The notes under the pieces were generated by a model. It was given only the letters and a program-made list of their open reading frames with translations. It had not been told where the DNA came from and ran no database searches. Positions 46,101 to 64,000 of a DNA stretch of 64,000 nt are shown piece by piece; the stretch's first letter is position 1, and each line of letters begins with the position of its first letter. The DNA is taken from NCBI GenBank assembly GCA_963666215.2, contig CAXWPL010000004.1, forward strand, positions 800,001 to 864,000, read 5' to 3'. The DNA is from Acidobacteriota bacterium. Lineage in GTDB: Bacteria; Acidobacteriota; UBA890; WLXD01. The translations under genes were made by a program, and so were the position numbers.

Positions 46101-46721
46101 GGTTGGCTGCAGCGCGTCGCGCGCGACGACGGCGATTGGATGCCGGCGCATTTCGAGCTCGCCTTCGGGTTGGGCACCCAGCCCGGCCGCGACGAGGCGA
46201 GCCAACCCGACGAAGTCGTTGTGCTCGGCGGCGTTCGGCTGCGCGGCGCGATTGATCTTGTTGAGCGTCGCCGGGTTCCGGGTACCTCGAAAGCCGTGGG
46301 CGGAGATGAAACGGCCGCGCCGACGTGGCGCGTGACCGACCACAAAACAGGCAAGGCTCCACGGGAGCGGTTCCTCGTACTGCGGGGTGGCGAGGTGATG
46401 CAGCCGCTGCTCTACGCGCTCGCCGCCGAAAGCCTACTCGAAGGTCCAGTTGCCTCCGGGCGTCTTTTCTACTGCACCCGTCGCGGCGAATACGAGACCC
46501 GCGAGGTTGAGCTCAACGCCGACACCCGCGCACGGGTCGAGCAGGCGCTCGGCATGATCGACGACGACCTCGCGGCCGGTTTCTTGCCGGCCGCGCCGCG
46601 GGACGGCGCCTGCCGATACTGCGACTACCGCATTGTCTGTGGTCCGTACGAGGAGATTCGCCTGCGTCGCAAGGACCAGGGTCGACTGGCCAGGCTGCGT
46701 CTGCTGAGAGGCACGCCGTGA
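43107..46721 (+). CDS. addB: AddB-like inactive helicase plus PD-(D/E)XK nuclease with Fe-S Cys
   Basis: FDRMAILLRD, LPGLAEGLFP, SPTALQRYAACPYQF, RGAIDLVE, DHKTG, QPLLY and CRYCDYRIVC; coupled to addA. Start uncertain. Confidence 0.88.
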   Translation: MSQSSHELPGALSPDRSTSMRAARLVRSSSAARRLLAAQEWLASQLEASAPPPRPGSGTLLLAPTRGAADDLLRRAVAAGGACGVYRTTLPQVAAELAIPELAAAARAPVSALGIDALAAHAVSICLERNQLRYFRPVAELPGFARAVGATLSELRKGGVEAKALAAVGRAGRDLEALLSVFDDALSRWGLVDEADLLRLAARRVERAQGRAAGIIGLPLLLVDLSPASPVEERLLAALSAAAPAVLATAVDGDDKGCAALQRSLGCEPEDLDLERSAGVSVGSTTRLERLRRTVFRADHPGGNVGDDDGTRAVGPPASTAPADHDDAPPRLPGMELDDSLDVLSAPGEGRECAEIARRVLEHAAAGTPFDRMAILLRDPHAYMPLLEEACRRAGLPVHLTRGAVRPHPSGRAFLALLSCASEGLSASRFAEYLSLGQTPVPDAEGRPRLVEVPWVEAEGAQLVFKTLVEPPTEAELVAVASTATTQPADISGPTDLADPFDPADGTADTSPVLAGTLRVPRHWERLLVDAAVVGGRERWRRRLRGLRAELRLQLESRDEPDDNRAAHIRRRLARLHNLESFALPVIDALATLPGSAAAALEGAPGQGASWGTWLEALRRLAMLTLRHPELVLGVLAELQPMDSVGPVLLDEVQRTLHERLSTLRVEPGSRRHGRLWVASIDEARGRAFDIVFLPGLAEGLFPRRIGEDPLLLDNARDLLQAALITKEERYQHERLLLRIAAGAARRRLVVSYPTLDMAQGRARVPSFYALDVLRAAEGRLPDIEELQARAAASTSSLLGWPAPQDPARAIDEAEFDIAYLEPLLARSPNDIAGRARFLLGTNPHLDRALRARWHRWKQPFTPADGLVEPGAAALTALSGHRLTERSYSPTALQRYAACPYQFLLHAVHRLRPRPEVVALEKLDPLTRGSLFHEIQHELLIELRDRSLLPVTADNRAEVFDVADAVLQRVAAVYQERLAPAIPRVWRNEIQAIGTDLRGWLQRVARDDGDWMPAHFELAFGLGTQPGRDEASQPDEVVVLGGVRLRGAIDLVERRRVPGTSKAVGGDETAAPTWRVTDHKTGKAPRERFLVLRGGEVMQPLLYALAAESLLEGPVASGRLFYCTRRGEYETREVELNADTRARVEQALGMIDDDLAAGFLPAAPRDGACRYCDYRIVCGPYEEIRLRRKDQGRLARLRLLRGTP

Positions 46722-51044: not shown

Positions 51045-52577
51045 ATGGCCATCCAACCGCGTCAGCCCGCAGACAGCTGGCGGCACGCGGCGTTTCGACT
51101 CGCGCTCGTCGCGCTGCCTGAGTGGTTTCGTGACCGCTTCGCGGCGGACATGGAGGCGACGTTCCTCGAACGCTTCGCTGTTGCACGCGCGGCCCCACTA
51201 CCAAGCGATGGCCGCCGTCGGCGGCCGAGGACGCCGGCGCTCCGCGTCCTTCTTGCCGAGCTCGGCGCCGTGGCCCGGCTCTTCGTCCGTCTTCGTTGGA
51301 GCGGCCAAGCGCTGCTCGATCTTCCCGAGCACCCGGCTCGTGTTGCGGGTGTCATGCCCAAGGAGAGACTGCTCGTGGAGACGCTGATTCAGGATTTCAA
51401 GTTCGCTCTTCGCATGGTGCGTCGTAACCCCGGGTTCGTGGCCGTCGCCGTCCTTACCCTGGCGCTCGGCGTGGGTGCCAACGCCACGATCTTCGGGATG
51501 GTCGCGTCGATGATGGCGCCCCGTTTGCCGTACGCCGACACCGACGAGCTGATGATCGTTTGGTCCACGTTCCCCGAACGCGGCATCGACACCAACTCGA
51601 CATCGCCTGCCGACTTTCTCGACTGGCGATCGCAGAACGAGACCTTCGTCGACCTAGCGGCCCAAACGTCGTGGAGTGCCAACCTGACGGGCGGCGAGCG
51701 GCCGCTTCGTCTCGATGGCTATCGAGTTTCCGCCAACATATTCCGCGTGCTCGGTGCCCAACCGCTCCTCGGCCGCGACTTTCTTTCTAGCGACGATGCA
51801 TCTGGCGCCGAGGGGGTCGTAATGCTGAGCTGGCGGCTATGGCAAAGGCTCGGCGCTGATCCGGGTTTGATCGGTGACTCGCTGCGCATCGACGGGGCCG
51901 AGCATACGGTCGTCGGAGTGATGCCCCAGGGCTTCGAGTACCCACAGTTCCAGTTCCGGGGTGATTTCTGGGCGCCGATGCGGCTGACGCCGGAGCAGGC
52001 TGCCAGGCGTGGCGGCCGCAATCTCGTCGTCGTCGGACGGCTGTTGCCGGACACAACGCGTAAGGCCGGCGAGCTCGATATTCAGCAGATTGCGGAGCAG
52101 CTCGCGGCCGAACACCCTGTAGACAATGCCGGCCGCAGCGCCCGGCTCGTAGCGATCGACGGAATGATCGCCGAGCGGATGATGCCCGCCTTCGCGGTGC
52201 TGCTGGCGACCGTCGGGGCGGTGCTGCTGATCTGCTGTGCGAACGTCGCCAACCTGTACCTGGCTCGCGCTTCGGTGCGACGCCGCGAGATCGCCGTGCG
52301 CTCGGCGCTCGGTGCCTCGCGAATGCGCGTCGTGCGTCAACTGCTGACCGAGAGCGTTGTGGTGGCTACGGCGGGCGGCATTTGCGGATACGCGCTGTCG
52401 CAGGTCGCCGGCACACTGATCATCTCGAGTCTTCCAGCTTTTGTGGTACGCGTGGCTCCGAGCGCGATCGAAGGCGGGGCAGATTCCAGAGTCCTCGGGT
52501 TCACGATGATTGTCTCGTCGGACCGTCGCCGCCACCGCCGAATCCGCCATCACCACCGCCACCGGCTACGGGAGTGA
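51045..52577 (+). pseudogene. ADOP/MacB-FtsX-type ABC permease, truncated at about 52517
   Basis: QDFKFALRMVRRNPGF, TLALGVGANATIF, CANVANL and RRREIAVRSALGA motifs. Family similarity ends at VLGFTMIVS and the second half of the permease is absent. Confidence 0.8.
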
Positions 52578-55212
52578 AGCGCGGGTAGCGCAGGTCCCAG
52601 GTGACACGGTGCAGGCCCTTCGAACTGCTGCCTGTCAGTCGGCGGACAACACCACCCGAGCTGTCGCGTACGGTCAGCACCATCGCCGGGTCGGCCTCGC
52701 GATCCTCTGCCCGGAGCTCTTCCCAGCTCGGATAGAACACGTCTTCACCCTCCTCGGCGGCCTTCTTGTCGCGCTCCTGGCGAACCTCGCGTCTCGTCTC
52801 GAGCGAGTCGCGCAGGTGGTAGGTGAACGTGGCGCCAAAGGCCGGGTTCGGCGCGATGAAGTAGTCGGCGCCCTGAAAGGCGCGATCGTTCAAGGCGATG
52901 GGCGTTGCCTCGAAGTAGGCCAACGCGTCGCGCGTCGGAAAGATGTGGGCCTCTGCTCCGAGCGCCGCATCGTCGAGCGTGCGCAGGGCGGAGTAGTCGT
53001 CGAGCACGTAGAAGCTGCGGCCGAACGAGGCGATGACGAGGTCGTCCATCTGGCGTTGGATCTCGATGTCGCGAACAGAAATGGTCGGCAACCCGGAAGA
53101 CAGCTCGACCCAATGATCGCCGCCGTCGCGCGTGAACCAGACGCCGAACTCCGTCGCCGCAAACAGCAAACTCGCATCGACATGGTCCTGCTCGAGCGCG
53201 TACACCGAGCCACGCTCCGGCAGGTCGCCCGTGATCGACGTCCATGAAACGCCTCTGTCGGAGCTCTTGAAGACATACGGCGCGAAGTCGCCCATCTTGT
53301 GGTTGTTGAATGCCGCAAAAACCGTGTCCGCGTCGTGCAGCGACGCCTCCAGATCGTTGACGTAGGTTATGTCGGGAACGCCTGGGACCGCATCGATGCG
53401 CTGCCAGGAGTCGCCGGCGTCCGCGGTTACTTGCACCAGGCCGTCGTCGGTACCGGCGTACAGCAGGCCCTCGACCAGCGGCGATTCGTCGAGCGCGACA
53501 ATCGTCCCGTAGAACGACGTCGAGTTGTTCTTGCGCACAGAGTCGACGCCCCAGACGCGTCCCATGATCTCCAGGCGGTTGCGATCGAGGTTGCGCGTCA
53601 AGTCGCCGCTTACCGGCCGCCACGCGTTTCCACGATCATCGCTGCGGAAGAGAATCTGCGAGCCGAAGTAGAGGCGCGCCGGATCGTGCGGGCTGATGAG
53701 AATGGCCGAGTCCCAGTTCCATCGCAGCGGCGGCCCGTCAGCCGACTCACGCGGCTTCACGTCGAGGCTCTCGCCGGTCTTGCGGTCGTGGCGCACCAGG
53801 CCGCCATGCTGCCACTGCGCGTACATGATGTCGGCGTTGCTCGGGTCGATGGCGGGCTCGAAGCCGTCGCCGAAGACGGGGATCGTCCAGTCGGAATTGC
53901 GGATGCCGTTCACCGCCGTCGTACGCGCTGGGCCGCAGTGCGTGGCGTTGTCCTGGGTTCCACCACAAACCGTGTAGAACGGCGCGTCGTTGCCGACCGA
54001 CAGCTTGTAGTACTGCGTGATCGGCAGGTTGGTGAAGAAGCGCCAGGTGCTGCCGCGATCGAAGCTCTCGTACAGGCCGCAGTCATTGCCGTTGAGCAGG
54101 TGGTTCTCATCGTCGGGATCGATCCACAGCGCGTGGTTGTCGATGTGCTTGTCCTGCTCGCCAACGCTGTTCCAGGTGCGGCCGCCGTCTTCGCTCCTTT
54201 GCGCGCGCGTATCCATGGCGTACAGCCGATCGAACTGATGTGGGTCGGCGAAGAGCTCCTGGTAGTACTGCGGGCTGCCGGTGACGTAGTCGCTGCGCTT
54301 GCTCCAGCTCGCGCCGGCATTTTCCGACACGTATGTGCCGCGCCCCTCGGCGGCGTCGACCAGCGCGTAAACGACATCGGGTCGCTGTGGCGAGATCGCC
54401 AAGCCAATACGGCCCAGGTCGCCCGACGGCAGTCCGCTCGTCAGCTCCACCCATGTCTCGCCGCCATCGACCGTCTTGTGAATGCCGGCTTCCGGGCCGC
54501 CGTCGAGCAGTGTCCAGACATGACGCCGGCGCTGGTAGGCCGCCGCGTACAGCACGTCCGGATCGCGCGGATCCATCAGCAGGTCGGTCACCCCGGTGTC
54601 GTCGCTGATCTCGAGCACCTTCGTCCACGTTTCGTCGCCGTCGCCGGTCAGGTACACGCCACGTTCGCCACCCGAGCTCCACAGCGGACCCTGTGCGGCG
54701 ACATAAACGGTGTTGGAGTCCTCCGGATGAATCAGGATGCGGGCGATGTGTTCGGAGCTCTCGAGGCCCATGTTGCGGAAACTCTTGCCGCCGTCGACCG
54801 ATTTGTAGATGCCGTCGCCGTAGGCCACCGAGCGCTGGCTGTTGTTCTCGCCGGTGCCTACCCAGATCGTCAGCGGGTCGTGTGGATCGACGACCACGGT
54901 GCCCACCGAGTAGGAGCCGTACTCGTCGAAGATCGGCTCCCACTGCACGCCGGCGTTGATTGTTTTCCACACACCGCCCGAGGCGACGCTCACGTACCAG
55001 GTGCGCTCGTTCGTCGGATCAACCGCGATCTCGGTAATCCGGCCCGACATGAACGCGGGTCCGATGCCGCGCCACTTCAGCGCCGACACCGTCCCGGAGG
55101 TCAAGCCGCCGTCTTCCTCCGCGGGTTCCTCCTGGGCGACGACCAGCGGCGCGGCGGCGAGCGCAGCAACCAACACCAGGGAAAACGCGAACCACGACCA
55201 ACGGCTCTTCAT
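52501..55212 (-). CDS. Secreted VPS10/BNR-repeat glycosyl hydrolase-like protein, apparently 3'-truncated
   Basis: WRGIGPAFMSGRI, many SxDGGxTW Asp-boxes and GGTQDN. Ends WDLRYP...GGGGDGP then TRQSS, lacking the GTYTV strand that the paralog at 55984 retains. Confidence 0.85.
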   Translation of the reverse strand: MKSRWSWFAFSLVLVAALAAAPLVVAQEEPAEEDGGLTSGTVSALKWRGIGPAFMSGRITEIAVDPTNERTWYVSVASGGVWKTINAGVQWEPIFDEYGSYSVGTVVVDPHDPLTIWVGTGENNSQRSVAYGDGIYKSVDGGKSFRNMGLESSEHIARILIHPEDSNTVYVAAQGPLWSSGGERGVYLTGDGDETWTKVLEISDDTGVTDLLMDPRDPDVLYAAAYQRRRHVWTLLDGGPEAGIHKTVDGGETWVELTSGLPSGDLGRIGLAISPQRPDVVYALVDAAEGRGTYVSENAGASWSKRSDYVTGSPQYYQELFADPHQFDRLYAMDTRAQRSEDGGRTWNSVGEQDKHIDNHALWIDPDDENHLLNGNDCGLYESFDRGSTWRFFTNLPITQYYKLSVGNDAPFYTVCGGTQDNATHCGPARTTAVNGIRNSDWTIPVFGDGFEPAIDPSNADIMYAQWQHGGLVRHDRKTGESLDVKPRESADGPPLRWNWDSAILISPHDPARLYFGSQILFRSDDRGNAWRPVSGDLTRNLDRNRLEIMGRVWGVDSVRKNNSTSFYGTIVALDESPLVEGLLYAGTDDGLVQVTADAGDSWQRIDAVPGVPDITYVNDLEASLHDADTVFAAFNNHKMGDFAPYVFKSSDRGVSWTSITGDLPERGSVYALEQDHVDASLLFAATEFGVWFTRDGGDHWVELSSGLPTISVRDIEIQRQMDDLVIASFGRSFYVLDDYSALRTLDDAALGAEAHIFPTRDALAYFEATPIALNDRAFQGADYFIAPNPAFGATFTYHLRDSLETRREVRQERDKKAAEEGEDVFYPSWEELRAEDREADPAMVLTVRDSSGGVVRRLTGSSSKGLHRVTWDLRYPRFTPVAGGGGDGGFGGGGDGPTRQSS

Positions 55213-55352
55213 CGGGACTCTCTCCAGTGTGTGTGTGACGGCGGCCACAATTTTGGGTGGCGACAATCCAGTCGAGGCGGGAGGCGGCGACAAACGCGAC
55301 GGTGCGCCGTGCAGATCGCAGGCGAGCTCGGCGTCGCGCAGCCTCGTTGCGA

Positions 55353-55880
55353 TCAGGCTCGCTCCACCAGCTCGTGGTTGAGCATCGCGTCGCCGTCGAA
55401 GACGAAGCGGCCGTGGAAGCGGCTGCCAGCCAGAAGGCGCGGCAGCCAGATACGGTCGTCCTCCCACATCTCGTCGTACGGAATTCTCTCGAGCGGCACC
55501 CACATCGGAATCGCCTCGTCGGTCTCGATCGGGTCTCCCTGCAGATCACCAGAACGGAATACCCACACGTGGATCGAGTAACCATCCACGAACTGAAACT
55601 CGAGCTCGCCCATCTGGACGGGATCGATCGGCGTGACCCCGATCTCCTCCTGGGTCTCGCGGATCGCTCCGTCGACCGCCGACTCACCGGGCTCGATACG
55701 GCCACCGGGCCCGTTAATCTTGCCGGCCCCGAGCCCGCGCTTTTTGCGGATCAGGAGCATCTGCCCCGCGCGGATGACGAACATCAACGTGGCGCGGTCG
55801 ACGGGTTGCCACGCAGCCCAGTCGATCTCGTCAACCGATCGAACCCGGGTGAACACATCTGGAGGAGGCTCTTGCTGCAT
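55353..55880 (-). CDS. Nudix hydrolase, MTH1/NUDT1-type 8-oxo-dGTP diphosphatase
   Basis: LLIRKKRGLGAGKINGPGGRIEPGE...RETQEEIG, ETDEA and IPYDEMWEDD motifs. Confidence 0.9.
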   Translation of the reverse strand: MQQEPPPDVFTRVRSVDEIDWAAWQPVDRATLMFVIRAGQMLLIRKKRGLGAGKINGPGGRIEPGESAVDGAIRETQEEIGVTPIDPVQMGELEFQFVDGYSIHVWVFRSGDLQGDPIETDEAIPMWVPLERIPYDEMWEDDRIWLPRLLAGSRFHGRFVFDGDAMLNHELVERA

Positions 55881-55983
55881 GGCGCCGCCAGCCTAGCGCG
55901 TTGACGGAACCGCGACAGCTCCTTAACCTCCCGATCGACTCGGCCATGCCGTAACCCTGCGCCCAGATCCTCCGGAGTCCCCA

Positions 55984-58668
55984 ATGTCTCGTTCCCGTAC
56001 GCTCGTCTACAGGTCGGCACTCGCCGTTCTCGTGTTCTTGTCAGGCGCCGTTATCAGCGCCAGCGCCCAGCAAGCAGGTGGTCCGACGCCCGCCGAAGAC
56101 CGGCTCGCCTGGTACGAGCGGCACGTCGGCATGAAGGACAGCTCGCTCTTCAAGAACGTGCAGTGGCAGTTCGTCGGCCCGACGAACGTCTCCGGACGGA
56201 TGACCGACATCGCCGTCGTCGAGCCGCGTGGCGAGAACTACACTGTGTTCGTCGCCGGAGCGTCGGGTGGCGTGTGGCGTACGAAGAACGAAGGGACAAC
56301 GTGGGAGCCGGTGTTCGAGCACGGGGCATCGACGTCGATCGGCGACGTCACGATTGCGCCGTCCAACCCGAACATCGTTTGGGTGGGCCCCGGCGAGGGG
56401 AACATCTTCCGCAGTTCGATGGCCGGCGCCGGGGTCTACAAGTCGACCGACGGTGGCGACAGCTGGGAGCACAAGGGACTCGCCGCCACCCACACGATTC
56501 CTCGGATCGTCATTCACCCGACCAACCCGGATGTGCTCTACGTCGCCGCCAGCGGCCGCGAGTGGACCGACAACCCCGAGCGCGGCGTCTACAAGAGCAC
56601 CGACGGCGGCGACAGCTGGGAGCTCGTGCTTTTCGTCAGCGAGCGCACTGGTGCCATCGATCTGGTGATGGATCCGTCCGATCCGAACCGGCTCTACGCC
56701 GCCACCTGGCAGCGGATTCGCAAGAAGTGGAACGATCCCCGCAACGAGGCGGGCTACTCCGAGAGCGGCATCTATCGCACCGACAACGGCGGCGCCGACT
56801 GGCAGGCCATCAACGATGGATTACCGGAACCACACTTCCGTGGCCGCATCGGCATCGACGTAGCGCGCTCGAACCCGAGCACGATCCACGCCTTCGTCGA
56901 CAGCTACGACGTGGCGCGGGTGCCCGAAGGCAACGAGACCGACTCCTACGGCCGGCCGCTTGCACCCGTGATCCGGGGTGCCACGGTGTTCCGCTCCGAC
57001 GACCGCGGCGACACGTGGCGCCAGGCTAGTGAGACCAACGAGCACATGGAGCGTCTCAACGCGACGTATGGATGGGTCTTTGGCCAAATGAGGGTCGACC
57101 CCAACGACGCCGAGACGATCTACGTCATGGGGCTGGGTCTGAACGTGTCGAACGACGGCGGCAAGACCTTCCGGCGCCTCTCCGGCATGCACGGCGACCA
57201 TCACGGCCTGTGGATCGATCCGCAGAACTCGAACTACCTCATCAACGTCAACGACGGCGGCGTGGATATCTCGTATGACGCCGGCGAGAACTGGAAGAAC
57301 TTCAATGACAACCTGTCGCTGGTGCAGTTCTTCAACATCGGCTACGACATGGACGAGCCGTTCAACGTCTATGGCTCGGTCCAGGACCATGGTTCCTATC
57401 GTGGACCCATCGATCTGAGGAACGGCCGCGACGAGATTCCGGCCGCCGAGTTCGCGCGCGCGCCGGGCGGCGAGGGATCGAGTCACGCGATCGACCCCAC
57501 CAACCCGAACCGTGTCTACTCTGCCGGCTTCTACGGCAGCATCACGCGCACCGACCTCGAAACGGGTGAGCGGGTCTCGATCGCGCCGCAGGCGGCCGAG
57601 GGCGAGCTGCCCCTGCGTGGCCAGTGGGTGGCGCCGTTCATCATCTCGCCGCACAACCCGCGGATCATCTACCACGGGTTCAACAAGCTCTTCCGGTCGA
57701 TGGACTTGGGCGACAGCTGGGAACAGATCAGCCCCGATCTGACCTACAACGAGCTCGAACTGATCGGCGACATTCCGTACCAGACGATCTTCTCGATCGC
57801 CGAGTCGCCACTGAAATTCGGCCTTATTTACGCCGGAACAGACGACGGGCGCATCTGGGTGACGAAGAGCTCCGGCGGCGAGTGGAGCGAGATCACCGGG
57901 AACCTGCCTGCAGGCAAGTTCACCGCCGAGCTGGTTGCGTCGGCCTACGACGAGGCCACGGTGTACCTGGCGCAGAACGGCAAGCGCGAGGACGACTTCA
58001 TGCCGTATCTGTGGAAATCAGCCGACTACGGCGCCTCCTGGGAAAACATCGCCGCGAACATTCCGTCGGGTCCGGTCAACGTCATTCGGGAGGACCCGGA
58101 GAACGAGAACCTGCTGTACGTCGGCACCGATCTCGGTGTTTATGCCAGCATCAGCGGTGGCGAAGACTGGCAGGTGCTGCCCGGCGGCCTGCCAACGACG
58201 TTCATCCACGACCTGATCATTCACCCCCGCGATCGCATCATGGTGGCCGCCAGTCACGGGCGTGGCATGTGGGCGCTGGACATCTCGAAGATCGAGCAGC
58301 TCACCGGCGAGGTGCTCGCCAAGCGGCTGCATGTGTTCGACGTCGACGCTGGCCGCGTTCGGCGAGGACAATTCGGCTTTGGATTCGGCGCCGGCACACG
58401 ACCCGTCTACGTGCACTATTACATGAGCACTGCGACCGACGTGAAGGTCGAGATCCGCGACGCCGACGGTGGTGTGATCGCCGAGCTCGAGGCCACCGGC
58501 GACGCCGGTTTGAACCGCGCCCGATGGGACCTGCAGAGGCAGGGACAGGCCGAAGCCGCTGGGCCACAGCGCGGTCGCGGGTCGCCGTTCGTAGCGGCCG
58601 GTACCTACACCGTGGTCGTCACGGCGGGTGGCGAGTCGGCTGAGAAGACCGTCGAGGTGGGTGGCTGA
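55984..58668 (+). CDS. Secreted VPS10/BNR-repeat glycosyl hydrolase-like protein
   Basis: Signal peptide, GPTNVSGRM, repeated KSTDGGDSW, HGDHHGLWIDP and a C-terminal WDL...AGTYTV. Confidence 0.9.
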   Translation: MSRSRTLVYRSALAVLVFLSGAVISASAQQAGGPTPAEDRLAWYERHVGMKDSSLFKNVQWQFVGPTNVSGRMTDIAVVEPRGENYTVFVAGASGGVWRTKNEGTTWEPVFEHGASTSIGDVTIAPSNPNIVWVGPGEGNIFRSSMAGAGVYKSTDGGDSWEHKGLAATHTIPRIVIHPTNPDVLYVAASGREWTDNPERGVYKSTDGGDSWELVLFVSERTGAIDLVMDPSDPNRLYAATWQRIRKKWNDPRNEAGYSESGIYRTDNGGADWQAINDGLPEPHFRGRIGIDVARSNPSTIHAFVDSYDVARVPEGNETDSYGRPLAPVIRGATVFRSDDRGDTWRQASETNEHMERLNATYGWVFGQMRVDPNDAETIYVMGLGLNVSNDGGKTFRRLSGMHGDHHGLWIDPQNSNYLINVNDGGVDISYDAGENWKNFNDNLSLVQFFNIGYDMDEPFNVYGSVQDHGSYRGPIDLRNGRDEIPAAEFARAPGGEGSSHAIDPTNPNRVYSAGFYGSITRTDLETGERVSIAPQAAEGELPLRGQWVAPFIISPHNPRIIYHGFNKLFRSMDLGDSWEQISPDLTYNELELIGDIPYQTIFSIAESPLKFGLIYAGTDDGRIWVTKSSGGEWSEITGNLPAGKFTAELVASAYDEATVYLAQNGKREDDFMPYLWKSADYGASWENIAANIPSGPVNVIREDPENENLLYVGTDLGVYASISGGEDWQVLPGGLPTTFIHDLIIHPRDRIMVAASHGRGMWALDISKIEQLTGEVLAKRLHVFDVDAGRVRRGQFGFGFGAGTRPVYVHYYMSTATDVKVEIRDADGGVIAELEATGDAGLNRARWDLQRQGQAEAAGPQRGRGSPFVAAGTYTVVVTAGGESAEKTVEVGG

Positions 58669-58693
58669 GGCGAGGTCGACAGCTGGCCAGGGC

Positions 58694-59602
58694 TCAGGAG
58701 GTCGGTTCCAGACCGTAGAGTCGGGCGGCGTTGCCCCCGAGGATGCCGTCGATCTCGGCCGGTGTTAGTTGTGGCCAGCCGCTGCGCGCCGCGATCTCGT
58801 TGATGCCGTGCCGGATCAGCTGGATCCAGCGCCGCATGTCAGCGCCGGGATCGTCCGAGAACACACCGGAGCCCGCGGACCAGTAGTCGGAGGCGTACAT
58901 CAGCTTGTCGAGCACGCCGAGCTCCTGCGCCTTCACCAGGTTCCAGGTCAGCGTCATCGGCCGGTCGTAGGTCATCGCCAGGTCGGCGAAGATGTTCACG
59001 TCCGGATTGGCCATCAAGAAGAAGAGCTCCTCGTACCACGGGTAGTTGAGGTGCTCGAGCACGACCTTGAGGTCGGGAAAATCGATCAGCACGCTCTGCA
59101 GCGACTCGATGCGCGCGTAGCGGTAGGGCGCCAGGGCGATGCCGGCAGTGCTGGCGCAGTGATGGAACTGCACGACAACATCGAGCTCGACGGCACGTTC
59201 GTAGAACGGGTATACCTGCGGGTCGTCGGAGGCGTAGTAGCCGTAGGGTGGAGTGAGCAACACACCCTTGAAGCCGTGCTCGGTCACGGCTCGGGTGAAG
59301 TACTCGAGCGCCGGCTTGTTGAACCGCCCGGCGGCGTCGATCGGTTCGACCGCGGCGAGGCCGACAAACAGATCCGGATGGGCTCGAATGCACTCGAGGA
59401 CGTGGTCCTCGCCGCACGACGAGCCCCACATACGCGTGGTGTCCTGGCCCATCACGACGGCGCGCTCCACGCCGGCCGAACGCAGCCAGCCAACTAGACC
59501 GTCGAGCTCCGTGTCGACCGGATGCCGATGGCCGATGCTCGCCTCGGCAACCTCGTCGAAGTTGTCGGCCCGCAGAACGTGGAGGTGGGAATCGATCAGC
59601 AA
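58694..59602 (-). CDS. Amidohydrolase_2 family metal-dependent hydrolase
   Basis: IDSHLH, YPFYE, QFHH, FPDLKVVLEHL, YASDY and ILGGNAARLY. Start placed at TTG 59602. Confidence 0.88.
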   Translation of the reverse strand: MLIDSHLHVLRADNFDEVAEASIGHRHPVDTELDGLVGWLRSAGVERAVVMGQDTTRMWGSSCGEDHVLECIRAHPDLFVGLAAVEPIDAAGRFNKPALEYFTRAVTEHGFKGVLLTPPYGYYASDDPQVYPFYERAVELDVVVQFHHCASTAGIALAPYRYARIESLQSVLIDFPDLKVVLEHLNYPWYEELFFLMANPDVNIFADLAMTYDRPMTLTWNLVKAQELGVLDKLMYASDYWSAGSGVFSDDPGADMRRWIQLIRHGINEIAARSGWPQLTPAEIDGILGGNAARLYGLEPTS

Positions 59603-59627
59603 ATGCCCAATCTCCCGCAACCGACGC

Positions 59628-61436
59628 TCACGCGGAGCTGTCGGCGACCGCGGTCGCGGTGTCGTGCTCGAGCGCGTCGAGGCGACGGAAGGCGGCGAAC
59701 AGATCGCCGCGGATGAAGTCGTTCTCAACGATGTTGAGCAGGTAGTAGCTGTCGTGGATCTCGTCGAGAACGGCGCGTGCGCGGCTGCCGGTCTCGTAGA
59801 AGTCGCCCCACTGCTGTTTCCAAATCGCGAACGCCTCTTCTTTCCAGATCATGAAGCTCTGGAACTCGACGACGGTCGGTTGGATGATCTCTTTGCCCGG
59901 GAAGATGCCCCAGGTGACGGCGTTGACGCTGTTGGGCGGCACGTTGAACTGAGCGTCGCCGGCTACGTTGACGGCCTGGTACGTCAGCGACGGGAACTCG
60001 GCGACGATCGCCAGAAAGCGTTGAAGCCGTTCCGGCGACAGGAACATCTCGATATAGGCCTTCTGGTAACAAACACCGCCGGCCCCGCCCCAACCGAGCT
60101 CGGGGTGAGAAGAGGCCACGCCATTGACCTGCGGCTGGCTGTTGATCGTCAGATAACCGTTGGCGTTGAGGGCGACGAGCTCGTGCGAGATCAGCTGGGT
60201 CTCACCCTGCAGACCACCGTCGACCCACGGTAGGGAGTCGATTTCGCCGGCACAGAAGCGCGCGAACACCTGGAATACGTCTTCGACCCGTTCGGGCTCG
60301 CCGTAAACTTGCTCGACGGCGTCGCGCGCCGCCAGGCGAATGCCGCGTCGCATGAGGTAGTACTCGTTGAGCGTGCCGTAGGACGGGCTTCTGCGATCGC
60401 CCCAGCGGCCGTTCGGGAAGTCGTCCCAGTTGGCGGTGCGGGCGAGGTAGCTCTCCGGACGGTTACTCCAGAAGATCGGGCGTACATCCTCGCCGCCGCG
60501 CGACGGATCGTCGGTGCTGCGCCAGGGCAGCGAACGCTCCGCCACATCGTCGGCGCGCAGACCGAGCGCGTCGACGATGCGGGCGACCGACCACTCGAGG
60601 TTGAGCGTGTAGAAGTGCAGCCCCGGGGCGCCATATTCGAGCAGTCGTCGACTCATTTCCACGCACAAGTCAACGCCATACTCGCGGACCTGCGCGTCGT
60701 CTTGCTTGATGGGCTCGAGTGCCGCGGCAACGCTGTCGGGCACCGAGACCTTGGTGAACGTGGCCATCTTCTTGAAGCGGCTGTAGTTCTGGATCGGCAG
60801 CATTCCGGGAATGACTGGGCAGTCGATACCGCGGCGTTCGCAGCGACCGAGAAAGGCCAAGTATTCATCCACGTCGAAGAGCAGCTGCGTGATCACGAAG
60901 TCGGCGCCACAATCGACCTTGTGCTTCAGATAGTCGGTGCAGCTCTCGCGATCGGCGGCCTCGAGGTGGCCCTCCGGGTAGCCGGCCACGCCGACGCACA
61001 TGCTGTCGCCGAAGCGCGCTCGAATGTGCTCGACGAGCTGATAGGCGTAGGAGAATCCCCCCTCGACGCGTTCCCACGCGGCCGCTCCCTGCGGGGCGTC
61101 ACCGCGCAGTGCGAGGATGTTACGGATTCCCGCGGCGTAAGCGGCGTCGAGCGCGGCGTCGAGCCGGTCGACCGTCATGTTCGTGCACGTCAGGTGCATG
61201 AGCACGTCGATGCCGAAGAACTCCTGCGCGGTCGCCGAGATGGCGAGCGTTTGATCGCTCGTCGAGCCGCCGGCGCCCCAGGTGACGTCGACGAACGTCG
61301 GCCCCAGGTCGATCATGCGATCCATGCGGCCGTAGAGGTTGTTCAGGCCCGCGTCGGTCTTCGGGGGGAAGTACTCGAACGAGAAGAAGGGCTCGCCGGC
61401 CGCAATGTGTTCGTTGATCCGGTCGATAATCCTCAT
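59628..61436 (-). CDS. metF: Methylenetetrahydrofolate reductase, eukaryote-type with C-terminal SAM-binding regulatory domain
   Basis: Catalytic FSFEYFPPK, DVTWGAGG, LALRGD and ITQL motifs. Regulatory RPIFW, WDDFPNGRWGD, TINSQP, YQKAY and NAVTWGIFPGKEIIQPT motifs. Confidence 0.95.
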   Translation of the reverse strand: MRIIDRINEHIAAGEPFFSFEYFPPKTDAGLNNLYGRMDRMIDLGPTFVDVTWGAGGSTSDQTLAISATAQEFFGIDVLMHLTCTNMTVDRLDAALDAAYAAGIRNILALRGDAPQGAAAWERVEGGFSYAYQLVEHIRARFGDSMCVGVAGYPEGHLEAADRESCTDYLKHKVDCGADFVITQLLFDVDEYLAFLGRCERRGIDCPVIPGMLPIQNYSRFKKMATFTKVSVPDSVAAALEPIKQDDAQVREYGVDLCVEMSRRLLEYGAPGLHFYTLNLEWSVARIVDALGLRADDVAERSLPWRSTDDPSRGGEDVRPIFWSNRPESYLARTANWDDFPNGRWGDRRSPSYGTLNEYYLMRRGIRLAARDAVEQVYGEPERVEDVFQVFARFCAGEIDSLPWVDGGLQGETQLISHELVALNANGYLTINSQPQVNGVASSHPELGWGGAGGVCYQKAYIEMFLSPERLQRFLAIVAEFPSLTYQAVNVAGDAQFNVPPNSVNAVTWGIFPGKEIIQPTVVEFQSFMIWKEEAFAIWKQQWGDFYETGSRARAVLDEIHDSYYLLNIVENDFIRGDLFAAFRRLDALEHDTATAVADSSA

Positions 61437-61622
61437 TGCGGCGAAGATAGTACGCGATTCGCGGTGATCCTAGCGTCGCCGAATCGCCGATCGCCGGCTC
61501 GCCATGGGGCGTCTCGCCGGTGAACGGCGCCGCTCCGCGTGCGGCGTCTGTGCGGTCCCGCACCACGGATCCTGGTAAGTTGCTCGGAACGGAGCATTCC
61601 CACGGGAGGGCGTGGAGCCGCG

Positions 61623-63767
61623 ATGCTTCCAATTTCTGGTTCTTGGCCGGGCACCCGGCGAACAGCGATGTTCTTGGCGATCGTACTGTCGCTGATGCCG
61701 CTGGCAGTCACGCTAGCGGGTGTTCAGCCGCAGCAGGGGCCGCCGGCCACGTCCGTGCAGCCACAGTTGCCTCCGGAGGCCGCGCCGGTTTCCGTTCAGG
61801 CTGGCCCGGCGCCCGCCCAGAGCGGCGCGGAGGCTGCCGCGCCGTCAGAGGAAGAGCCAGCTGCTCTGCGTCCGGGACGAGGTCCGACCGATGCCACCGA
61901 CGTCGAGACGTTCATCGACGGCGTGATGTCGGCCCACCTCGAGGCCTACGACATCGCTGGCGCTACCGTGGCTGTCGTCCGCGACGGAGAGGTGCTGCTC
62001 GCCAAGGGTTACGGCTTCGCTGACGTCGAGGAGCGCAGAAAAGTCGACGACGACGTTTCGCTTTTTCGCATCGGCTCGATTTCGAAGCTCTTCGTCTGGA
62101 TAGCCGTGATGCAGCTCGTTGAACAGAATCGCCTCGATCTCAATACCGACATCAATGAATACGTCGACGCATTCGATATCGCCGAAGCCTTCCACGGGCC
62201 GGTCACGATGGCCGACTTGATGACTCACGGCGCCGGGTTCGAGGATCAGGTCATCGGCCTCTTCAGTCGTGACGAGGCCAGCCTGCGCGAGCTGCCCGCG
62301 ATCATTGCCGACGAGATGCCGCGGCGTGTACGTCCTGCCGGCGAGGCCGCTTCGTACTCCAATCACGGAACCGGCATGGCAGCGCATGTGGTGGAGGCGA
62401 TCTCGGGCCTGGACTTCATCGACTACGTTGAGCGCAACATCACGGGTCCGCTCGGCATGAGCCACACTACGCTCCGGCAACCGGTGCCAGCCCACCTGAT
62501 CGCCTACATGTCGAAGGGCTACACCTTCAGCGACCGCAAGTTCGACGAGAAGCCGTTCGAATTCGTGCCGCTGGCGCCGGTTGGGGCGGTGTCGGCCAGC
62601 GCCGCCGACATGGCCCGGCTGATGATCATGTTCCTGCGGGAGGGTGCCTACGGCCCAGATGGTGCGGCGGGCCTGGATGGCACCGATAGCGTGGCCGCCG
62701 CAAACGACATCGCAGGGCAAGGCCGAATCCTTCGAGCAAGCTCGATGCGTCGCGCGCTCAGCCCGCTGCATCGCCACGCGCCCGAAGTCAATCCGATGGG
62801 CCACGGCTTCATCGACTCGAGTAGCAATGGCGAGTGGGTGATTGGACACGGCGGCCGAACGCTGTGGTTCCACTCCGACCTGGCGCTGCTTCCGGACCAC
62901 GAGGTCGGCGTGTTCGTTTCGTACAACAGCGCGCGCGGTCGCACGGCCAAGGGCGCGTTCATGCGGCAGTTCATGGACCACTACTTTCCGTTCGACGATC
63001 CCGAGGAGATTGCGCCGCCTGCCGACCTCGAGGCATGGGCTTCGCGAGCGAGTCGCTACGAAGGCAGCTACCGCGCCAACCGATACTCGCACTCGACGAT
63101 CGCCAAGATCGGCGCGCTCGGTGCCGTGGAGGTATCGGCGACCGACGACGGCGCACTGATGACCAGCTCCACCGGCCGCATTCGCTGGCTCGAGGTGTCG
63201 CCGCTGGTGTTCCGCGAAGAAATGGGTCACGACCGCCTGGTGTTCCGCGAGGACGCCGACGGCAACATCACGCATCTGTTCCTATCGGGCCTGCCGATCA
63301 TCGCTTTCGACCGACTGTCGGCCTACGAGACGCCGCGCACGCACGCCGTCCTGGCGGTCAGCTCCGCGTTGCTGCTGATACTGACCGTGGTGCTGTGGCC
63401 AATCGCCGCCCTCGTGCGCAGCAAGCACGGATACGAGGTTCGCCGGGAGCATCGACTTCCCACCGGCGCTCGATTGAGCGCCTGGACGGGTGCCGCGCTC
63501 ATGGTGGTCTTCGCGGCAGGCTTGGCGTTCGCGCTTGCCGATCCCAATGAGATCGTATTCGGCGTCGCTCGTGGACTGATCCTGGCGCTGTGGATGCCGC
63601 TGCTGGCGATTCCCTTCGCCGCGGCAACGGTCGTGTGGACGGTGATTCTGTGGCGCGAGGCGCGCGCCGGTTTCTGGACGCGCGTCATCTACACGCTGCT
63701 CGCGCTCGCCTTCATCGTGACGTACTGGCTGTTGCACTACTGGAACTTGCTGGGGTTTCGCTACTAG
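61623..63767 (+). CDS. Serine hydrolase (beta-lactamase/AmpC-like) with three C-terminal TM helices
   Basis: FRIGSISK (SxxK), LMTHGAG, YSN and HGG motifs; hydrophobic C-terminus. Confidence 0.9.
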   Translation: MLPISGSWPGTRRTAMFLAIVLSLMPLAVTLAGVQPQQGPPATSVQPQLPPEAAPVSVQAGPAPAQSGAEAAAPSEEEPAALRPGRGPTDATDVETFIDGVMSAHLEAYDIAGATVAVVRDGEVLLAKGYGFADVEERRKVDDDVSLFRIGSISKLFVWIAVMQLVEQNRLDLNTDINEYVDAFDIAEAFHGPVTMADLMTHGAGFEDQVIGLFSRDEASLRELPAIIADEMPRRVRPAGEAASYSNHGTGMAAHVVEAISGLDFIDYVERNITGPLGMSHTTLRQPVPAHLIAYMSKGYTFSDRKFDEKPFEFVPLAPVGAVSASAADMARLMIMFLREGAYGPDGAAGLDGTDSVAAANDIAGQGRILRASSMRRALSPLHRHAPEVNPMGHGFIDSSSNGEWVIGHGGRTLWFHSDLALLPDHEVGVFVSYNSARGRTAKGAFMRQFMDHYFPFDDPEEIAPPADLEAWASRASRYEGSYRANRYSHSTIAKIGALGAVEVSATDDGALMTSSTGRIRWLEVSPLVFREEMGHDRLVFREDADGNITHLFLSGLPIIAFDRLSAYETPRTHAVLAVSSALLLILTVVLWPIAALVRSKHGYEVRREHRLPTGARLSAWTGAALMVVFAAGLAFALADPNEIVFGVARGLILALWMPLLAIPFAAATVVWTVILWREARAGFWTRVIYTLLALAFIVTYWLLHYWNLLGFRY

Positions 63768-63958
63768 CGACCAGCAGCGATGGTGTCGGCGACCACCTCG
63801 CCGCCCTTCATCACGAGGGCAACGTTTTCGAGCACGCGTATGTCGTCGATTGGATCGCTCTCCACGGCGATCAGGTCGGCAATGTCGGCATAGCGACCGG
63901 GCGCGATCGCGCCGCGCAGCGTGCGAACTAGCGACGGCTTCGAGCTTGAAGCCGCCAT
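63764..63958 (-). pseudogene. C-terminal remnant of an amidohydrolase-family gene
   Basis: GAIAPGRYADIADLIAVESDPIDDIRVLENVALVMKGG is the standard last strand region of amidohydrolases. The catalytic barrel is missing. Confidence 0.7.
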
Positions 63959-64000
63959 CCTTGATATTCGAGCTGGGCTGCTAGAGTAGCCGCGCGGTCG

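What the first reader, a model, noticed from the sequence alone, without database searches (positions are those of the whole stretch)
59628..61436. Eukaryote-type, two-domain MTHFR in a bacterial chromosome
Seen: a 602-aa ORF in which the MetF catalytic barrel is followed (about 60530-59628) by the linker and regulatory domain. Its motifs RPIFW, WDDFPNGRWGD, ETQLI, LTINSQP, GWG..GG..YQKAY and NAVTWGIFPGKEIIQPTVV match human MTHFR and yeast Met13. It has no introns, host-like high GC and bacterial neighbours. Established: typical bacterial MetF is about 300 aa, and the SAM-binding allosteric domain is usually described as eukaryote-specific. The Ser-rich phosphorylated N-terminus of the human enzyme is absent. 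Inference: either an ameliorated eukaryote-to-bacterium transfer or a bacterial lineage related to the source of the eukaryotic enzyme. The gene looks leaderless (TATCTT 7 nt before ATG), which leaves no room for a SAM riboswitch, so SAM feedback may act on the protein.
Basis: partly seen in the sequence, partly recalled or inferred. Interest (0 to 1): 0.78.

Follow-up and report, generated by a model that had tools for sequence, protein, structure and literature searches.

The report
Bacterial two-domain SAM-sensing MTHFR
This bacterium's only methylenetetrahydrofolate reductase carries the SAM-binding regulatory domain that the papers read here describe as eukaryote-only, and the same two-domain enzyme turns up, rarely and patchily, in several bacterial phyla.

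Summary
Window 59628-61436 (-) is one intact 602-aa ORF: a full MTHFR catalytic barrel (PF02219, 1e-110) followed by the linker and SAM-binding regulatory domain (PF21895, 2.7e-91). It matches solved fungal and human MTHFR at E 1e-180 and 4e-171. It is the only MTHFR found in the genome. Its codon use is host-like, and independent assemblies reproduce its linkage to its neighbours.

Every residue that the human structures assign to the two SAM sites, the pi-stack and the Tyr plug is present, apart from small changes at a few positions. These residues are kept in 33-34 of 34 bacterial homologues. SAM feedback inhibition on the protein is therefore the most likely mechanism, but it is inferred.

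The architecture is rare in bacteria:
- 16 of 301 genomes sampled from the window's phylum
- 21 of 131 in the phylum of the Oligoflexales MAGs
- 1 of 201 in the phylum of the Planctomycetota-labelled MAG
- 0 of 14 model genomes

Source labels add Marinimicrobia, Eisenbacteria and a Deltaproteobacteria MAG. In three trees the window's gene sits in an all-bacterial, multi-phylum clade, so it is not a recent transfer from a eukaryote. The direction of the ancient transfer is unresolved. The leaderless claim is not supported. Papers up to 2026 still say bacteria lack this domain.

The parts
59628..61436 (-). Complete two-domain MTHFR gene (602 aa plus TGA stop)
   Evidence: ORF. Pfam and NCBIfam. 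PDB matches 8uy2 at 1e-180 and 6fcx at 4.3e-171 over residues 1-592 and 2-575.
60561..61421 (-). Catalytic FAD-binding TIM-barrel domain (residues 6-292). The catalytic residues are E21, D50, T52, H81 and Y276.
   Evidence: PF02219 at 1e-110 across the whole profile. Residues were mapped on human E63, D92, T94, H127 and Y321 from the 8qa4 alignment. Their positions were checked. They are kept in 33-34 of 34 bacterial and 25-26 of 26 eukaryotic rows.
60351..60560 (-). Inter-domain linker (residues 293-362). It holds L303-P304-W305 (SAM site 1), S324 (human sensor A368), F340-P-N-G-R-W345 (SAM site 2 and pi-stack) and Y359-Y360-L361-M362 (human plug Y403-Y404-L405-F406).
   Evidence: Alignment to 8qa4_A, whose chain numbering equals the native human numbering. 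Motif positions. Roles of the residues from Froese 2018 section 13 and Blomgren 2024 sections 7, 9 and 10.
59709..60536 (-). [quoted passage not shown]
   Evidence: PF21895 at 2.7e-91. Residue mapping. Conservation. The homodimer model uses residues 503-523.
61467..61472 (-). TAGGAT, a -10-like box 30 nt upstream of the ATG. It matches the conserved cgcTA(A/G)(A/G)AT box upstream of orthologues.
   Evidence: Upstream sequences of 27 orthologous loci plus the window's own were printed. Window sequence. This is a motif comparison only, with no transcript data.
61444..61449 (-). No Shine-Dalgarno motif lies between it and the ATG.
   Evidence: Sequence. The box is not conserved in the orthologues' upstream regions. 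The sigma-70 scan of 58500-62000 found 0 sites.

Best explanation
The gene encodes the organism's housekeeping 5,10-methylenetetrahydrofolate reductase, of the two-domain 'type 1' kind otherwise described from eukaryotes.

The N-terminal FAD barrel reduces CH2-THF to CH3-THF, which feeds the cobalamin-dependent methionine synthase MetH. The C-terminal domain pairs two protomers and senses the SAM/SAH ratio.

By analogy with the human enzyme, two SAM molecules would bind, one at site 1 and one at site 2. The linker would then rearrange, and Tyr360 (human Tyr404) would stack on the FAD and block the NAD(P)H/folate site. SAH at site 1 would release the block. Methionine-cycle feedback on this step would therefore act on the protein and not through an RNA leader.

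Shown: the architecture, residue conservation, sole-copy status, bacterial linkage, and membership of a bacterial multi-phylum clade.
Inferred: catalysis, dimerisation, SAM inhibition and SAH relief.

The lineage acquired the gene by old horizontal transfer among bacteria, and it stands in place of the MTHFR forms used by sister genera.
For: 1. Architecture and similarity. PF02219 plus PF21895 are both matched. TIGR00677 is above its cut-off. PDB matches are E 1e-180 to Chaetomium MTHFR and 4e-171 to human MTHFR, across both domains. Full-length identity to 18 named eukaryotes is 47-52%.

2. Mechanism residues. Roles come from Froese 2018 and Blomgren 2024.
- Site 1: P304, W305, E412, T413, T430, S433, Q434, T508, T521.
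- Site 2 and pi-stack: F340, N342, R344, W345, W531, Q458, D247, A248.
- Plug: Y359-Y360.

3. Constraint in bacteria. Across 34 bacterial two-domain rows, 15 of the 17 site and stack residues are identical in 33-34 rows. The exceptions are T413 (T in 24, S in 10) and F340 (F in 31, Y in 2, one gap). The weaker site-2 contacts Q245 and A248 vary and are given under evidence against. The plug Tyr is Y in 26 and H in 8. Mean pairwise identity is 58% in the regulatory domain and 57% in the catalytic domain.

4. Sole MTHFR. The own genome has 1 PF02219 match and 1 PF21895 match, in the same gene. The two-domain gene is also the only PF02219 match in 7 of 7 other carriers checked: G301-G305 and G002 and G055.

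5. Pathway. A full-length MetH frame of 1306 aa and MetK are present.

6. Regulation. No Rfam hit lies in 56000-64000. The genome's single SAM-I riboswitch match precedes MetX.

7. A real bacterial locus. Synonymous codon use is at the 99th percentile of 2113 long ORFs of the genome. In 3 of 4 runs laid, from three studies, one 12.5-13 kb contig spans 58000-63000 with 0-1 differences. One of these runs may be the window's own source.

8. Dimer. The homodimer model of residues 296-602 scores ipSAE 0.67 against a best control of 0.00. In calibration this mark was reached by 20 of 30 solved pairs of one chain and by 1 of 23 single chains. The runs agree in at least 84% of contacts, and partner pLDDT is at least 72. 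Like complexes are solved (6fcx, 8uy2), so this pass may reflect likeness only.

9. Clade. The window groups with its sister family f2 and Acidobacteriota-labelled proteins (100*, 96*, 98*). It lies inside an all-bacterial side of 28 rows (99*, full length), 21 rows (97*, catalytic domain) and 22 rows (98*, regulatory domain).
Against: - No biochemical data exist for any bacterial member.
- A regulatory domain does not guarantee SAM inhibition. I recall from Roje et al. 1999 that plant two-domain MTHFRs are NADH-dependent and SAM-insensitive. The 2026 review passages I read confirm only the NADH dependence and mention a SAM-insensitive chimeric yeast Met13.
- Human D289 is Q245 here and varies among bacteria. 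A292 is A in only 17 of 34 bacterial rows. The fourth plug residue is M, not F.
- Human sensor A368 is S324 here. Froese 2018 reports Ser at this position in lower animals.
- The genome is 91.7% complete, so a second MTHFR in the missing part is not excluded.
- NADH or NADPH preference cannot be read from the sequence.
- The neighbours (an amidohydrolase 8-32 nt downstream and a divergent beta-lactamase-family gene) have no link to methionine. They are not shared with any other two-domain locus, so gene context adds nothing.
- All trees are 'quick' searches with SH-aLRT support only.
Confidence: 0.78

Rival explanations
1. The enzyme is an active two-domain MTHFR, but its C-terminal domain serves only for dimerisation and stability, or binds another ligand. 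There would then be no SAM feedback, as I recall for plant MTHFRs.
For: I recall from Roje et al. 1999 that plant enzymes keep the domain yet are SAM-insensitive. That paper appears only in the reference list I saw. Some second-site contacts differ here: Q245 for human D289, and M362 for F406. Nothing has been tested in any bacterium.
Against: Of the 17 site-1, site-2 and stack residues, 15 are identical in 33-34 of 34 bacterial rows, and the plug Tyr is Y in 26 of 34. In the sampled non-animal eukaryotes the plug position is Y in only 3 of 26. A domain kept only for dimerisation would not need to conserve the ligand pocket, the FPNGRW loop and the plug.
Confidence: 0.15
2. The gene is eukaryotic DNA wrongly joined to a bacterial contig or bin, through assembly chimera or contamination.
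For: The genome looks like a metagenome-derived assembly: 5 contigs, 91.7% complete, 2.97% contamination. Most other bacterial carriers are MAGs.
Against: - The gene lies 860 kb into a 1.06-Mb contig.
- In 3 of 4 runs laid, from three studies, one contig spans the gene and both neighbours with 0-1 differences.
- Codon use is at the 99th percentile of host-like preference.
- It is the genome's only MTHFR.
- Related copies sit in single-contig genomes of 4.6-4.9 Mb in genus g132.
- There are no introns.
Confidence: 0.01
3. The gene reached this lineage by a recent transfer from a eukaryote, for example a host or prey organism.
For: The architecture is universal among the sampled eukaryotes and rare in bacteria. 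Identity to eukaryotes is 47-52%. Within the window's own family, the other 10 genomes lack the domain.
Against: - The nearest relatives are bacterial: 61-66% identity to the sister family f2 and to Acidobacteriota-labelled proteins.
- The window lies in an all-bacterial clade in the full-length, catalytic-domain and regulatory-domain trees.
- No sampled eukaryote is closer than 52% identity.
- Codon use is fully host-like.
Confidence: 0.03
4. Deep origin, version A. The two-domain enzyme arose on the eukaryotic stem and passed to bacteria once or twice long ago. It then spread between bacterial phyla by horizontal transfer, and the window's gene descends from that spread.
For: - All 26 named eukaryotes from about six supergroup-level lineages have it.
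- Bacterial carriers are rare and patchy: 16 of 301, 21 of 131, 1 of 201 and 0 of 14.
- Bacterial clades mix phyla, and one phylum holds two distant versions, window/f2 and g132.
- With g132 removed, the outgroup attaches among eukaryotes, and the main bacterial clade sits next to Rhizaria with support 89-93.
Against: - With g132 included, the rooted catalytic-domain tree places bacterial two-domain groups at the base.
- Monophyly of all two-domain bacteria is not rejected (p-AU 0.35). Eukaryote monophyly is not rejected either (p-AU 0.21).
- The closest single-domain outgroups found are bacterial: L061 and L062, at 41-42% identity.
- The Pfam paper reports that the stand-alone relative of the regulatory domain, DUF6919, is bacterial.
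Confidence: 0.45

Closest known systems
Human MTHFR (PDB 6fcx, 8qa4-8qa6) and Chaetomium thermophilum MTHFR (8uy1, 8uy2): two-domain, SAM-inhibited 'type 1' MTHFR
   Same: - The domain order is the same: FAD barrel, linker, regulatory domain.
- The match runs over both domains at E 4e-171 and 1e-180.
- Catalytic E, D, T, H and Y are present.
- SAM site 1 (P-W, E-T, T..S-Q, T, T) is present.
- Site 2 (FPNGRW), bridging Q458 and stacking W531 are present.
- The Tyr-Tyr plug is present.
- A symmetric regulatory-domain dimer is modelled through the strand at 503-523.
   Different: - The host is a bacterium.
- There is no Ser/Thr-rich phosphorylated N-terminus.
- S324 stands for human A368, Q245 for D289 and M362 for F406.
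- There are no introns, and codon use is bacterial.
- SAM response and NAD(P)H preference are untested.
Ordinary bacterial MetF (E. coli, Thermus; TIGR00676, PRK09432), single domain of about 300 aa
   Same: The FAD TIM barrel and the reaction are the same. E-values to the solved E. coli and Thermus enzymes are 1e-49 to 1e-60 over residues 6-295.
   Different: - These enzymes have no linker or regulatory domain and oligomerise through the barrel (papers read).
- The window protein scores below both models' cut-offs.
- Identity to the single-domain MetF of sister genus g4 is only 29-31%.
- In trees these proteins form the outgroup.
Bifunctional homocysteine S-methyltransferase/MTHFR (NF006396, YitJ type), the commonest form in the phylum sample
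   Same: It has a similar length of 618-636 aa and supplies the same metabolic step. It is found in sister genera g2, g3 and g5 of the window's family.
   Different: The extra domain is N-terminal and catalytic (homocysteine methyltransferase), not a C-terminal SAM sensor. The window protein scores 56.6 bits against a cut-off of 453.
DUF6919 (PF21897), a stand-alone bacterial relative of the regulatory domain (Pfam 2024 paper)
   Same: There is weak similarity at residues 384-484: 26.4 bits against a cut-off of 27. The paper reports a shared fold and conserved pocket residues.
   Different: The similarity here lies inside a full MTHFR_C domain fused to a barrel. In 201 genomes sampled from the window's phylum, all 8 matches lie inside two-domain MTHFR genes, and no stand-alone copy was found.

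Membership tests
Two-domain type 1 MTHFR (PF02219 + PF21895; TIGR00677) | Full-length MTHFR catalytic barrel | tested here: met
   PF02219 at 1e-110, profile 1-287 of 287. TIGR00677 scores 385.8, above its cut-off of 310.
Two-domain type 1 MTHFR (PF02219 + PF21895; TIGR00677) | [quoted passage not shown] | tested here: met
   PF21895 at 2.7e-91 over residues 301-576. One ORF with no stops. A colinear match to 8uy2, 6fcx and 8qa4 runs across both domains.
Two-domain type 1 MTHFR (PF02219 + PF21895; TIGR00677) | Catalytic residues (human E63, D92, T94, H127, Y321) | tested here: met
   E21, D50, T52, H81 and Y276.
Two-domain type 1 MTHFR (PF02219 + PF21895; TIGR00677) | SAM/SAH site 1 residues (human P348, W349, E463, T464, T481, S484, Q485, T560, T573) | tested here: met
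   P304, W305, E412, T413, T430, S433, Q434, T508 and T521 are all identical to human.
Two-domain type 1 MTHFR (PF02219 + PF21895; TIGR00677) | Second SAM site and pi-stack (human F384, N386, R388, W389, W583, Q509, D289/D291/A292) | tested here: met
   F340, N342, R344, W345, W531, Q458, D247 and A248 are identical to human. D289 is Q245.
Two-domain type 1 MTHFR (PF02219 + PF21895; TIGR00677) | Auto-inhibitory aromatic plug in the linker (human Y403-Y404-L405-F406; Y404 is essential) | tested here: met
   Y359-Y360-L361-M362, so the Y404 equivalent is present and F406 is M.
Two-domain type 1 MTHFR (PF02219 + PF21895; TIGR00677) | Homodimer through the regulatory domains | tested here: inconclusive
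   This is a model only. ipSAE is 0.67 against a best control of 0.00. In calibration the mark was reached by 20 of 30 solved pairs of one chain and by 1 of 23 single chains. Like complexes are solved, so the pass may be from likeness.
Two-domain type 1 MTHFR (PF02219 + PF21895; TIGR00677) | Allosteric inhibition by SAM and relief by SAH | not testable with these tools
   This needs an enzyme assay or calorimetry.
Chordate MTHFR subgroup | Ser/Thr-rich phosphorylated N-terminal extension | tested here: not met
   Residue 2 aligns with human residue 44, and there is no N-terminal extension.
Ordinary single-domain bacterial MetF (TIGR00676 / PRK09432) | Score above the equivalog cut-off, and a length of about 300 aa | tested here: not met
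   278.9 against 293.7, and 191 against 382. The protein is 602 aa.
Bifunctional homocysteine S-methyltransferase/MTHFR (NF006396) | N-terminal homocysteine methyltransferase domain, and a score above 453 | tested here: not met
   56.6 bits, matching the barrel only.

The most novel reading that the evidence does not exclude
The SAM-sensing two-domain MTHFR was assembled in bacteria, by fusing a type 1 barrel to a DUF6919-like SAM-binding domain. The ancestor of eukaryotes then took it from bacteria. On this reading the window's clade is a surviving bacterial lineage of the enzyme that became the universal eukaryotic regulator of the methyl cycle, and not a returnee from eukaryotes.
Probability: 0.3. 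Interest if true: 0.8.

Novelty: new member of a known kind. Interest (0 to 1): 0.6.

Why it matters
The papers I read state that the regulatory domain and SAM inhibition are absent from prokaryotes:
- Froese 2018 (passages and section 13)
- Yamada 2024 (passages)
- Blomgren 2024 (abstract and sections 7, 9, 10)
- Yu 2025 (passages)
- the Pfam 2024 paper (DUF6919 passage), which says 'typical only for eukaryotes'
- a 2026 review (passages)

Here a bacterium relies on such an enzyme as its only MTHFR, and related copies occur in at least six phylum-level groups. This has three consequences.

1. The textbook domain distribution needs correcting.
2. Protein-level SAM feedback on MTHFR probably exists in some bacteria, alongside riboswitch control of other met genes.
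3. The origin of the eukaryotic regulatory domain becomes a testable question that has bacterial full-length relatives to work with, not only the distant DUF6919.

Intron-free bacterial enzymes may also be handy models for studying the allosteric switch. The protein itself is an ordinary member of a well-studied family, so the surprise is taxonomic and evolutionary, not mechanistic.

Tried and rejected
- Synteny. The three neighbours' proteins hit none of the other MTHFR loci. The beta-lactamase-family neighbour has orthologues at 52-55% identity in sister genus g4, but nothing else within 20 kb is shared. No insertion site could therefore be defined.

- Riboswitches near other MTHFR genes. 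The Rfam gathering scan of 20 loci found 0 hits. The SAM-II search of the own genome found nothing, but its control rang in no genome, so it is uninformative.

- Expression. The look-up of sequencing runs listed no RNA holder, so nothing can be said on transcription or the 5' end.

- ESM Atlas. The best hit scored 0.81 and was a mostly eukaryotic MTHFR_C cluster. That is below the tool's trust level and was not used.

- 'Single-domain type 1' bacterial relatives. Many 275-330-aa hits at 47-55% identity appeared. Two of the 275-aa clusters also contain 608-aa and 638-aa proteins, one of them a fungal protein from Diplodia. At least part of these hits are therefore fragments of eukaryotic genes. 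Named single-domain eukaryotic paralogues nest inside eukaryotic groups. No conclusion was drawn on bacterial single-domain type 1 enzymes beyond L061 and L062.

- Rooting. The root among bacteria did not survive removal of the long, compositionally odd g132 rows, so it was rejected as evidence of direction.

- Limits of the sample. No animal sequence could be included, because none was returned as a stored protein. The PDB chains could not be used in trees.

- Tools not available. Supplementary files of the papers were not opened. The orthologue alignments in the supplements of Froese 2018 and Blomgren 2024 may hold bacterial rows that I could not see.

- Paper searches for a prior description of bacterial two-domain MTHFR. 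None was found in the open-access library. Subscription papers are not covered.
Full report
**1. The observation**

Window 59628-61436 on the minus strand is a single open frame of 602 codons that starts at ATG. No other ATG, GTG or TTG lies between the upstream stop and that ATG. Homology to solved MTHFRs begins at residue 1-2, so the start is secure.

- Pfam finds the MTHFR barrel across its whole profile (residues 6-292, 1e-110). It also finds the 'MTHFR, SAM-binding regulatory domain' (residues 301-576, 2.7e-91).
- NCBIfam places the protein in TIGR00677 ('fadh2_euk', 385.8 bits, cut-off 310). It falls below the cut-offs of the ordinary bacterial MetF models and of the bifunctional YitJ-type model.
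- Against the Protein Data Bank, the best matches are the two-domain enzymes of Chaetomium thermophilum (1e-180) and human (4e-171), colinear over both domains. Single-domain bacterial enzymes follow at 1e-45 to 1e-60.

**2. Is it really part of this bacterium?**

- The window lies in a 1.06-Mb contig of a 4.65-Mb, 5-contig genome that is 91.7% complete.
- Gene GC is 64.2% against 65.1% for the genome. Its synonymous codon choice sits at the 99th percentile of 2113 long ORFs of the genome for host-preferred codons, in both halves of the gene.
- In three of four public runs laid, from three different studies, one 12.5-13 kb contig covers 58000-63000 with 0-1 differences. One of these runs may be the source of the window. 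The fourth run has a contig break at 61266-61297 and low depth.
- The neighbours are ordinary bacterial genes.
- The gene is the only match to either MTHFR family in the genome.

A chimera or contaminant is therefore very unlikely.

**3. Mechanism read from the sequence**

The chain numbering of 8qa4 equals the native human numbering: N456...E463-T464 falls where Froese 2018 places it. I used this to map the residues that Froese 2018 (section 13) and Blomgren 2024 (sections 7, 9 and 10) assign to regulation. I checked the positions by script.

| Role | Human | Window |
|---|---|---|
| Site 1 | P348, W349 | P304, W305 |
| Site 1 | E463, T464 | E412, T413 |
| Site 1 | T481, S484, Q485 | T430, S433, Q434 |
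| Site 1 | T560, T573 | T508, T521 |
| Sensor | A368 | S324 |
| Site 2 and pi-stack | F384-P-N-G-R-W389 | F340-W345 |
| Site 2 and pi-stack | W583 | W531 |
| Bridging Gln | Q509 | Q458 |
| Site 2, barrel side | D289-N-D-A292 | Q245-D-D-A248 |
| Plug | Y403-Y404-L405-F406 | Y359-Y360-L361-M362 |

The catalytic residues E21, D50, T52, H81 and Y276 are present.

Conservation across 34 bacterial two-domain proteins:
- Fifteen of the 17 site-1, site-2 and stack residues are identical in 33-34 rows.
- T413 is T in 24 rows and S in 10. F340 is F in 31 and Y in 2, with one gap.
- The two barrel-side contacts Q245 and A248 vary among the bacterial rows.
- The plug Tyr is Y in 26 rows and H in 8. In the 26 non-animal eukaryotes sampled it is Y in only 3.
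- The regulatory domain is as conserved among bacteria as the barrel (58% against 57% mean pairwise identity).

A model of two copies of residues 296-602 gives a symmetric dimer through the strand at 503-523. The score is 0.67 against a best control of 0.00. In calibration this mark was reached by 20 of 30 solved pairs of one chain and by 1 of 23 single chains. The runs agree in at least 84% of contacts, and partner pLDDT is at least 72. Like complexes are solved, so this shows likeness and not binding.

The genome has a full MetH and MetK. Its one SAM-I riboswitch match precedes a MetX (NF006449, 320 bits against a cut-off of 296). Nothing from Rfam lies near the MTHFR gene.

The most likely reading is a housekeeping MTHFR that SAM shuts off, and SAH reopens, by the mechanism shown for the human enzyme. 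This step is inferred. I recall, from a paper I did not read here, that plant enzymes keep the domain but are SAM-insensitive, so the inference is not safe without an assay.

**4. The leaderless claim**

TATCTT lies 7 nt before the ATG, and there is no Shine-Dalgarno motif. Orthologues, however, share a different box, cgcTA(A/G)(A/G)AT. In family f2 it lies 20-25 nt before the start and is followed by GGAG. In genus g132 it lies about 10 nt before the start. In the window (TAGGAT, 61467-61472) it lies 30 nt before the start.

The consensus promoter scan found nothing, and no RNA run was listed. The 5' end is therefore open. The divergent gene's signal-peptide-like Met is about 230 nt away, so space for a leader exists. 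It is simply not a known riboswitch.

**5. Distribution**

The regulatory-domain family was found in:

| Sample | Genomes with a match |
|---|---|
| The window's phylum | 16 of 301 |
| Other genomes of the window's own family f1 | 0 of 10 |
| Sister family f2 | 10 of 15 |
| Distant genus g132 (three single-contig genomes) | 5 of 5 |
| Phylum holding the Oligoflexales MAGs | 21 of 131 |
| Phylum of the Planctomycetota-labelled MAG | 1 of 201 (itself) |
| Model control genomes | 0 of 14 |

- A protein identical to that of G215 (family f2, same order as the window) carries the NCBI label Acidobacteriota. The window's phylum is therefore most likely Acidobacteriota.
- Source labels on other two-domain proteins add Marinimicrobia/Neomarinimicrobiota (including a fosmid record labelled Chloroflexi), Eisenbacteria, a Deltaproteobacteria MAG and Proteobacteria MAGs.
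- Sister genera of the window's family use other forms. These are an ordinary single-domain MetF (frames of 320-491 aa) in g4, and the bifunctional homocysteine methyltransferase/MTHFR in g2, g3 and g5.
- In the phylum sample, 58 of 61 genomes have some MTHFR, mostly the bifunctional form.
- In 8 of 8 carriers checked, the two-domain gene is the only MTHFR.
- No stand-alone DUF6919 was found in 201 genomes sampled from the phylum.

**6. Phylogeny**

All trees used IQ-TREE 'quick' with LG+C20 PMSF and SH-aLRT support. A star marks support of 95 or more.

- Full length, 64 rows (34 bacterial, 26 named eukaryotes from Discoba, Amoebozoa, Fungi, SAR, Archaeplastida and a haptophyte, and 4 unlabelled; no animals). 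The window joins f2 and Acidobacteriota-labelled proteins (100*), then an Oligoflexales MAG (95*). It lies on an all-bacterial side of 28 rows (99*).
- The same split appears with the regulatory domain alone (22 rows, 98*) and with the barrel alone (21 rows, 97*). The two domains therefore share one history.
- A second bacterial group falls on the eukaryote side with weak placement. It consists of g132 from the window's own phylum, the Deltaproteobacteria MAG and unlabelled proteins. The phylum thus holds two distant versions, at 48-50% identity to each other's representatives.
- Eukaryotes as one side of a branch are not rejected (p-AU 0.21).
- Rooting the barrel tree with ordinary MetFs puts two long-branched single-domain bacterial MetFs (41-42% identity) next to the type 1 clade. 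It puts g132 and the delta MAG at the base of that clade. All two-domain bacteria as one clade is not rejected (p-AU 0.35).
- When g132 and two other long rows are left out, the base becomes eukaryotic and the main bacterial clade sits by Rhizaria with support 89-93.

The direction of the ancient inter-domain transfer is therefore unresolved. What is robust is that the window's gene is not a recent import from any sampled eukaryote.

**7. What is known**

Passages I read say that bacteria lack the regulatory domain. They come from Froese 2018, Yamada 2024, Yu 2025 and a 2026 review. The abstract of Blomgren 2024 calls it a domain that eukaryotic MTHFR appends. The Pfam 2024 paper calls the two-domain architecture 'typical only for eukaryotes' and points to stand-alone bacterial DUF6919 as a relative.

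Five searches of the open-access library found no description of bacterial two-domain MTHFR. The sequences themselves have long been in public databases under the plain name 'methylenetetrahydrofolate reductase'.

**8. Verdict**

This is a real, well-supported bacterial member of the two-domain, SAM-sensing MTHFR family. It is the sole MTHFR of its genome and belongs to a rare, multi-phylum bacterial clade. It corrects a repeated statement about domain distribution and opens the origin of the eukaryotic regulator to testing. As a protein it is an ordinary member of a known family, and its regulation remains to be measured.

Noticed in passing
L003-L007 (genus g132, same phylum as the window): A second, distant version of the two-domain MTHFR occurs in the same phylum. 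It is 48-50% identical to the window's protein and has a long stem branch and odd amino-acid make-up. It groups with a Deltaproteobacteria-labelled MAG protein and falls on the eukaryote side of the trees. This suggests two separate acquisitions within one phylum.
   Followed up: partly
G000:C5:1030035-1030162 (L040 1501-1628): The genome's only SAM-I riboswitch match (76.4 bits) lies just upstream of a 419-aa MetX (NF006449, 320 bits). SAM control by RNA therefore exists in this organism, but not at the MTHFR gene.
   Followed up: yes
Alignment of 34 bacterial and 26 eukaryotic two-domain MTHFRs, column of window Y360: The plug tyrosine, essential for SAM inhibition in the human enzyme (Y404), is Y in 26 of 34 bacterial rows. 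It is Y in only 3 of 26 sampled non-animal eukaryotes, where H, Q and G are common. At this position the bacterial proteins resemble the human enzyme more than most protists, fungi and plants do.
   Followed up: partly
L027 and protein P0164: Two source labels look doubtful. The MAG labelled Polynucleobacter (L027, G304) is grouped by the genome tool in the same phylum as the Oligoflexales MAGs. The fosmid protein labelled 'uncultured Chloroflexi' is in one 90% cluster with Marinimicrobia-labelled proteins.
   Followed up: no
Proteins P0337 and P0384 and their clusters: Many 275-aa 'single-domain' metagenomic MTHFRs at 48-49% identity share 90% clusters with 608-aa and 638-aa proteins, one of them a fungal protein from Diplodia. 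They look like exon fragments called on eukaryotic contigs and not like bacterial enzymes.
   Followed up: partly
Proteins P0284, P0292, P0300, P0307, P0289, P0338: Named eukaryotes (Chlorella, Micractinium, Mucorales, Amoeboaphelidium, Mesostigma) have single-domain type 1 MTHFR paralogues of 299-320 aa. These nest within their own eukaryotic groups in the barrel tree, which suggests repeated loss of the regulatory domain.
   Followed up: partly
window 58694-59620 (-): An Amidohydro_2 gene follows the MTHFR stop on the same strand after only 8-32 nt. Its likely start is a TTG, and one candidate is preceded by GGGAG. No terminator-like site was found in the short gap between the two genes, so the two may be co-transcribed. 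The pairing is not seen at any other two-domain locus.
   Followed up: partly
window 43107-50461 (+) and 52504-58668: There is an AddAB-like helicase-nuclease pair: a PD-(D/E)XK protein of 1204 aa and a UvrD plus PD-(D/E)XK protein of 1247 aa. Downstream lie a MacB/FtsX permease gene (51045-52577) and two large Sortilin/BNR-repeat proteins on opposite strands.
   Followed up: no
window 61266-61297 and 60807: In run X9 the contigs break at 61266-61297, where 32-42-letter records at depth 85 pile up. The run's 2.9x contig lacks one base at 60807, inside the gene. Both are probably artefacts of a low-depth assembly. The other three runs show neither.
   Followed up: no
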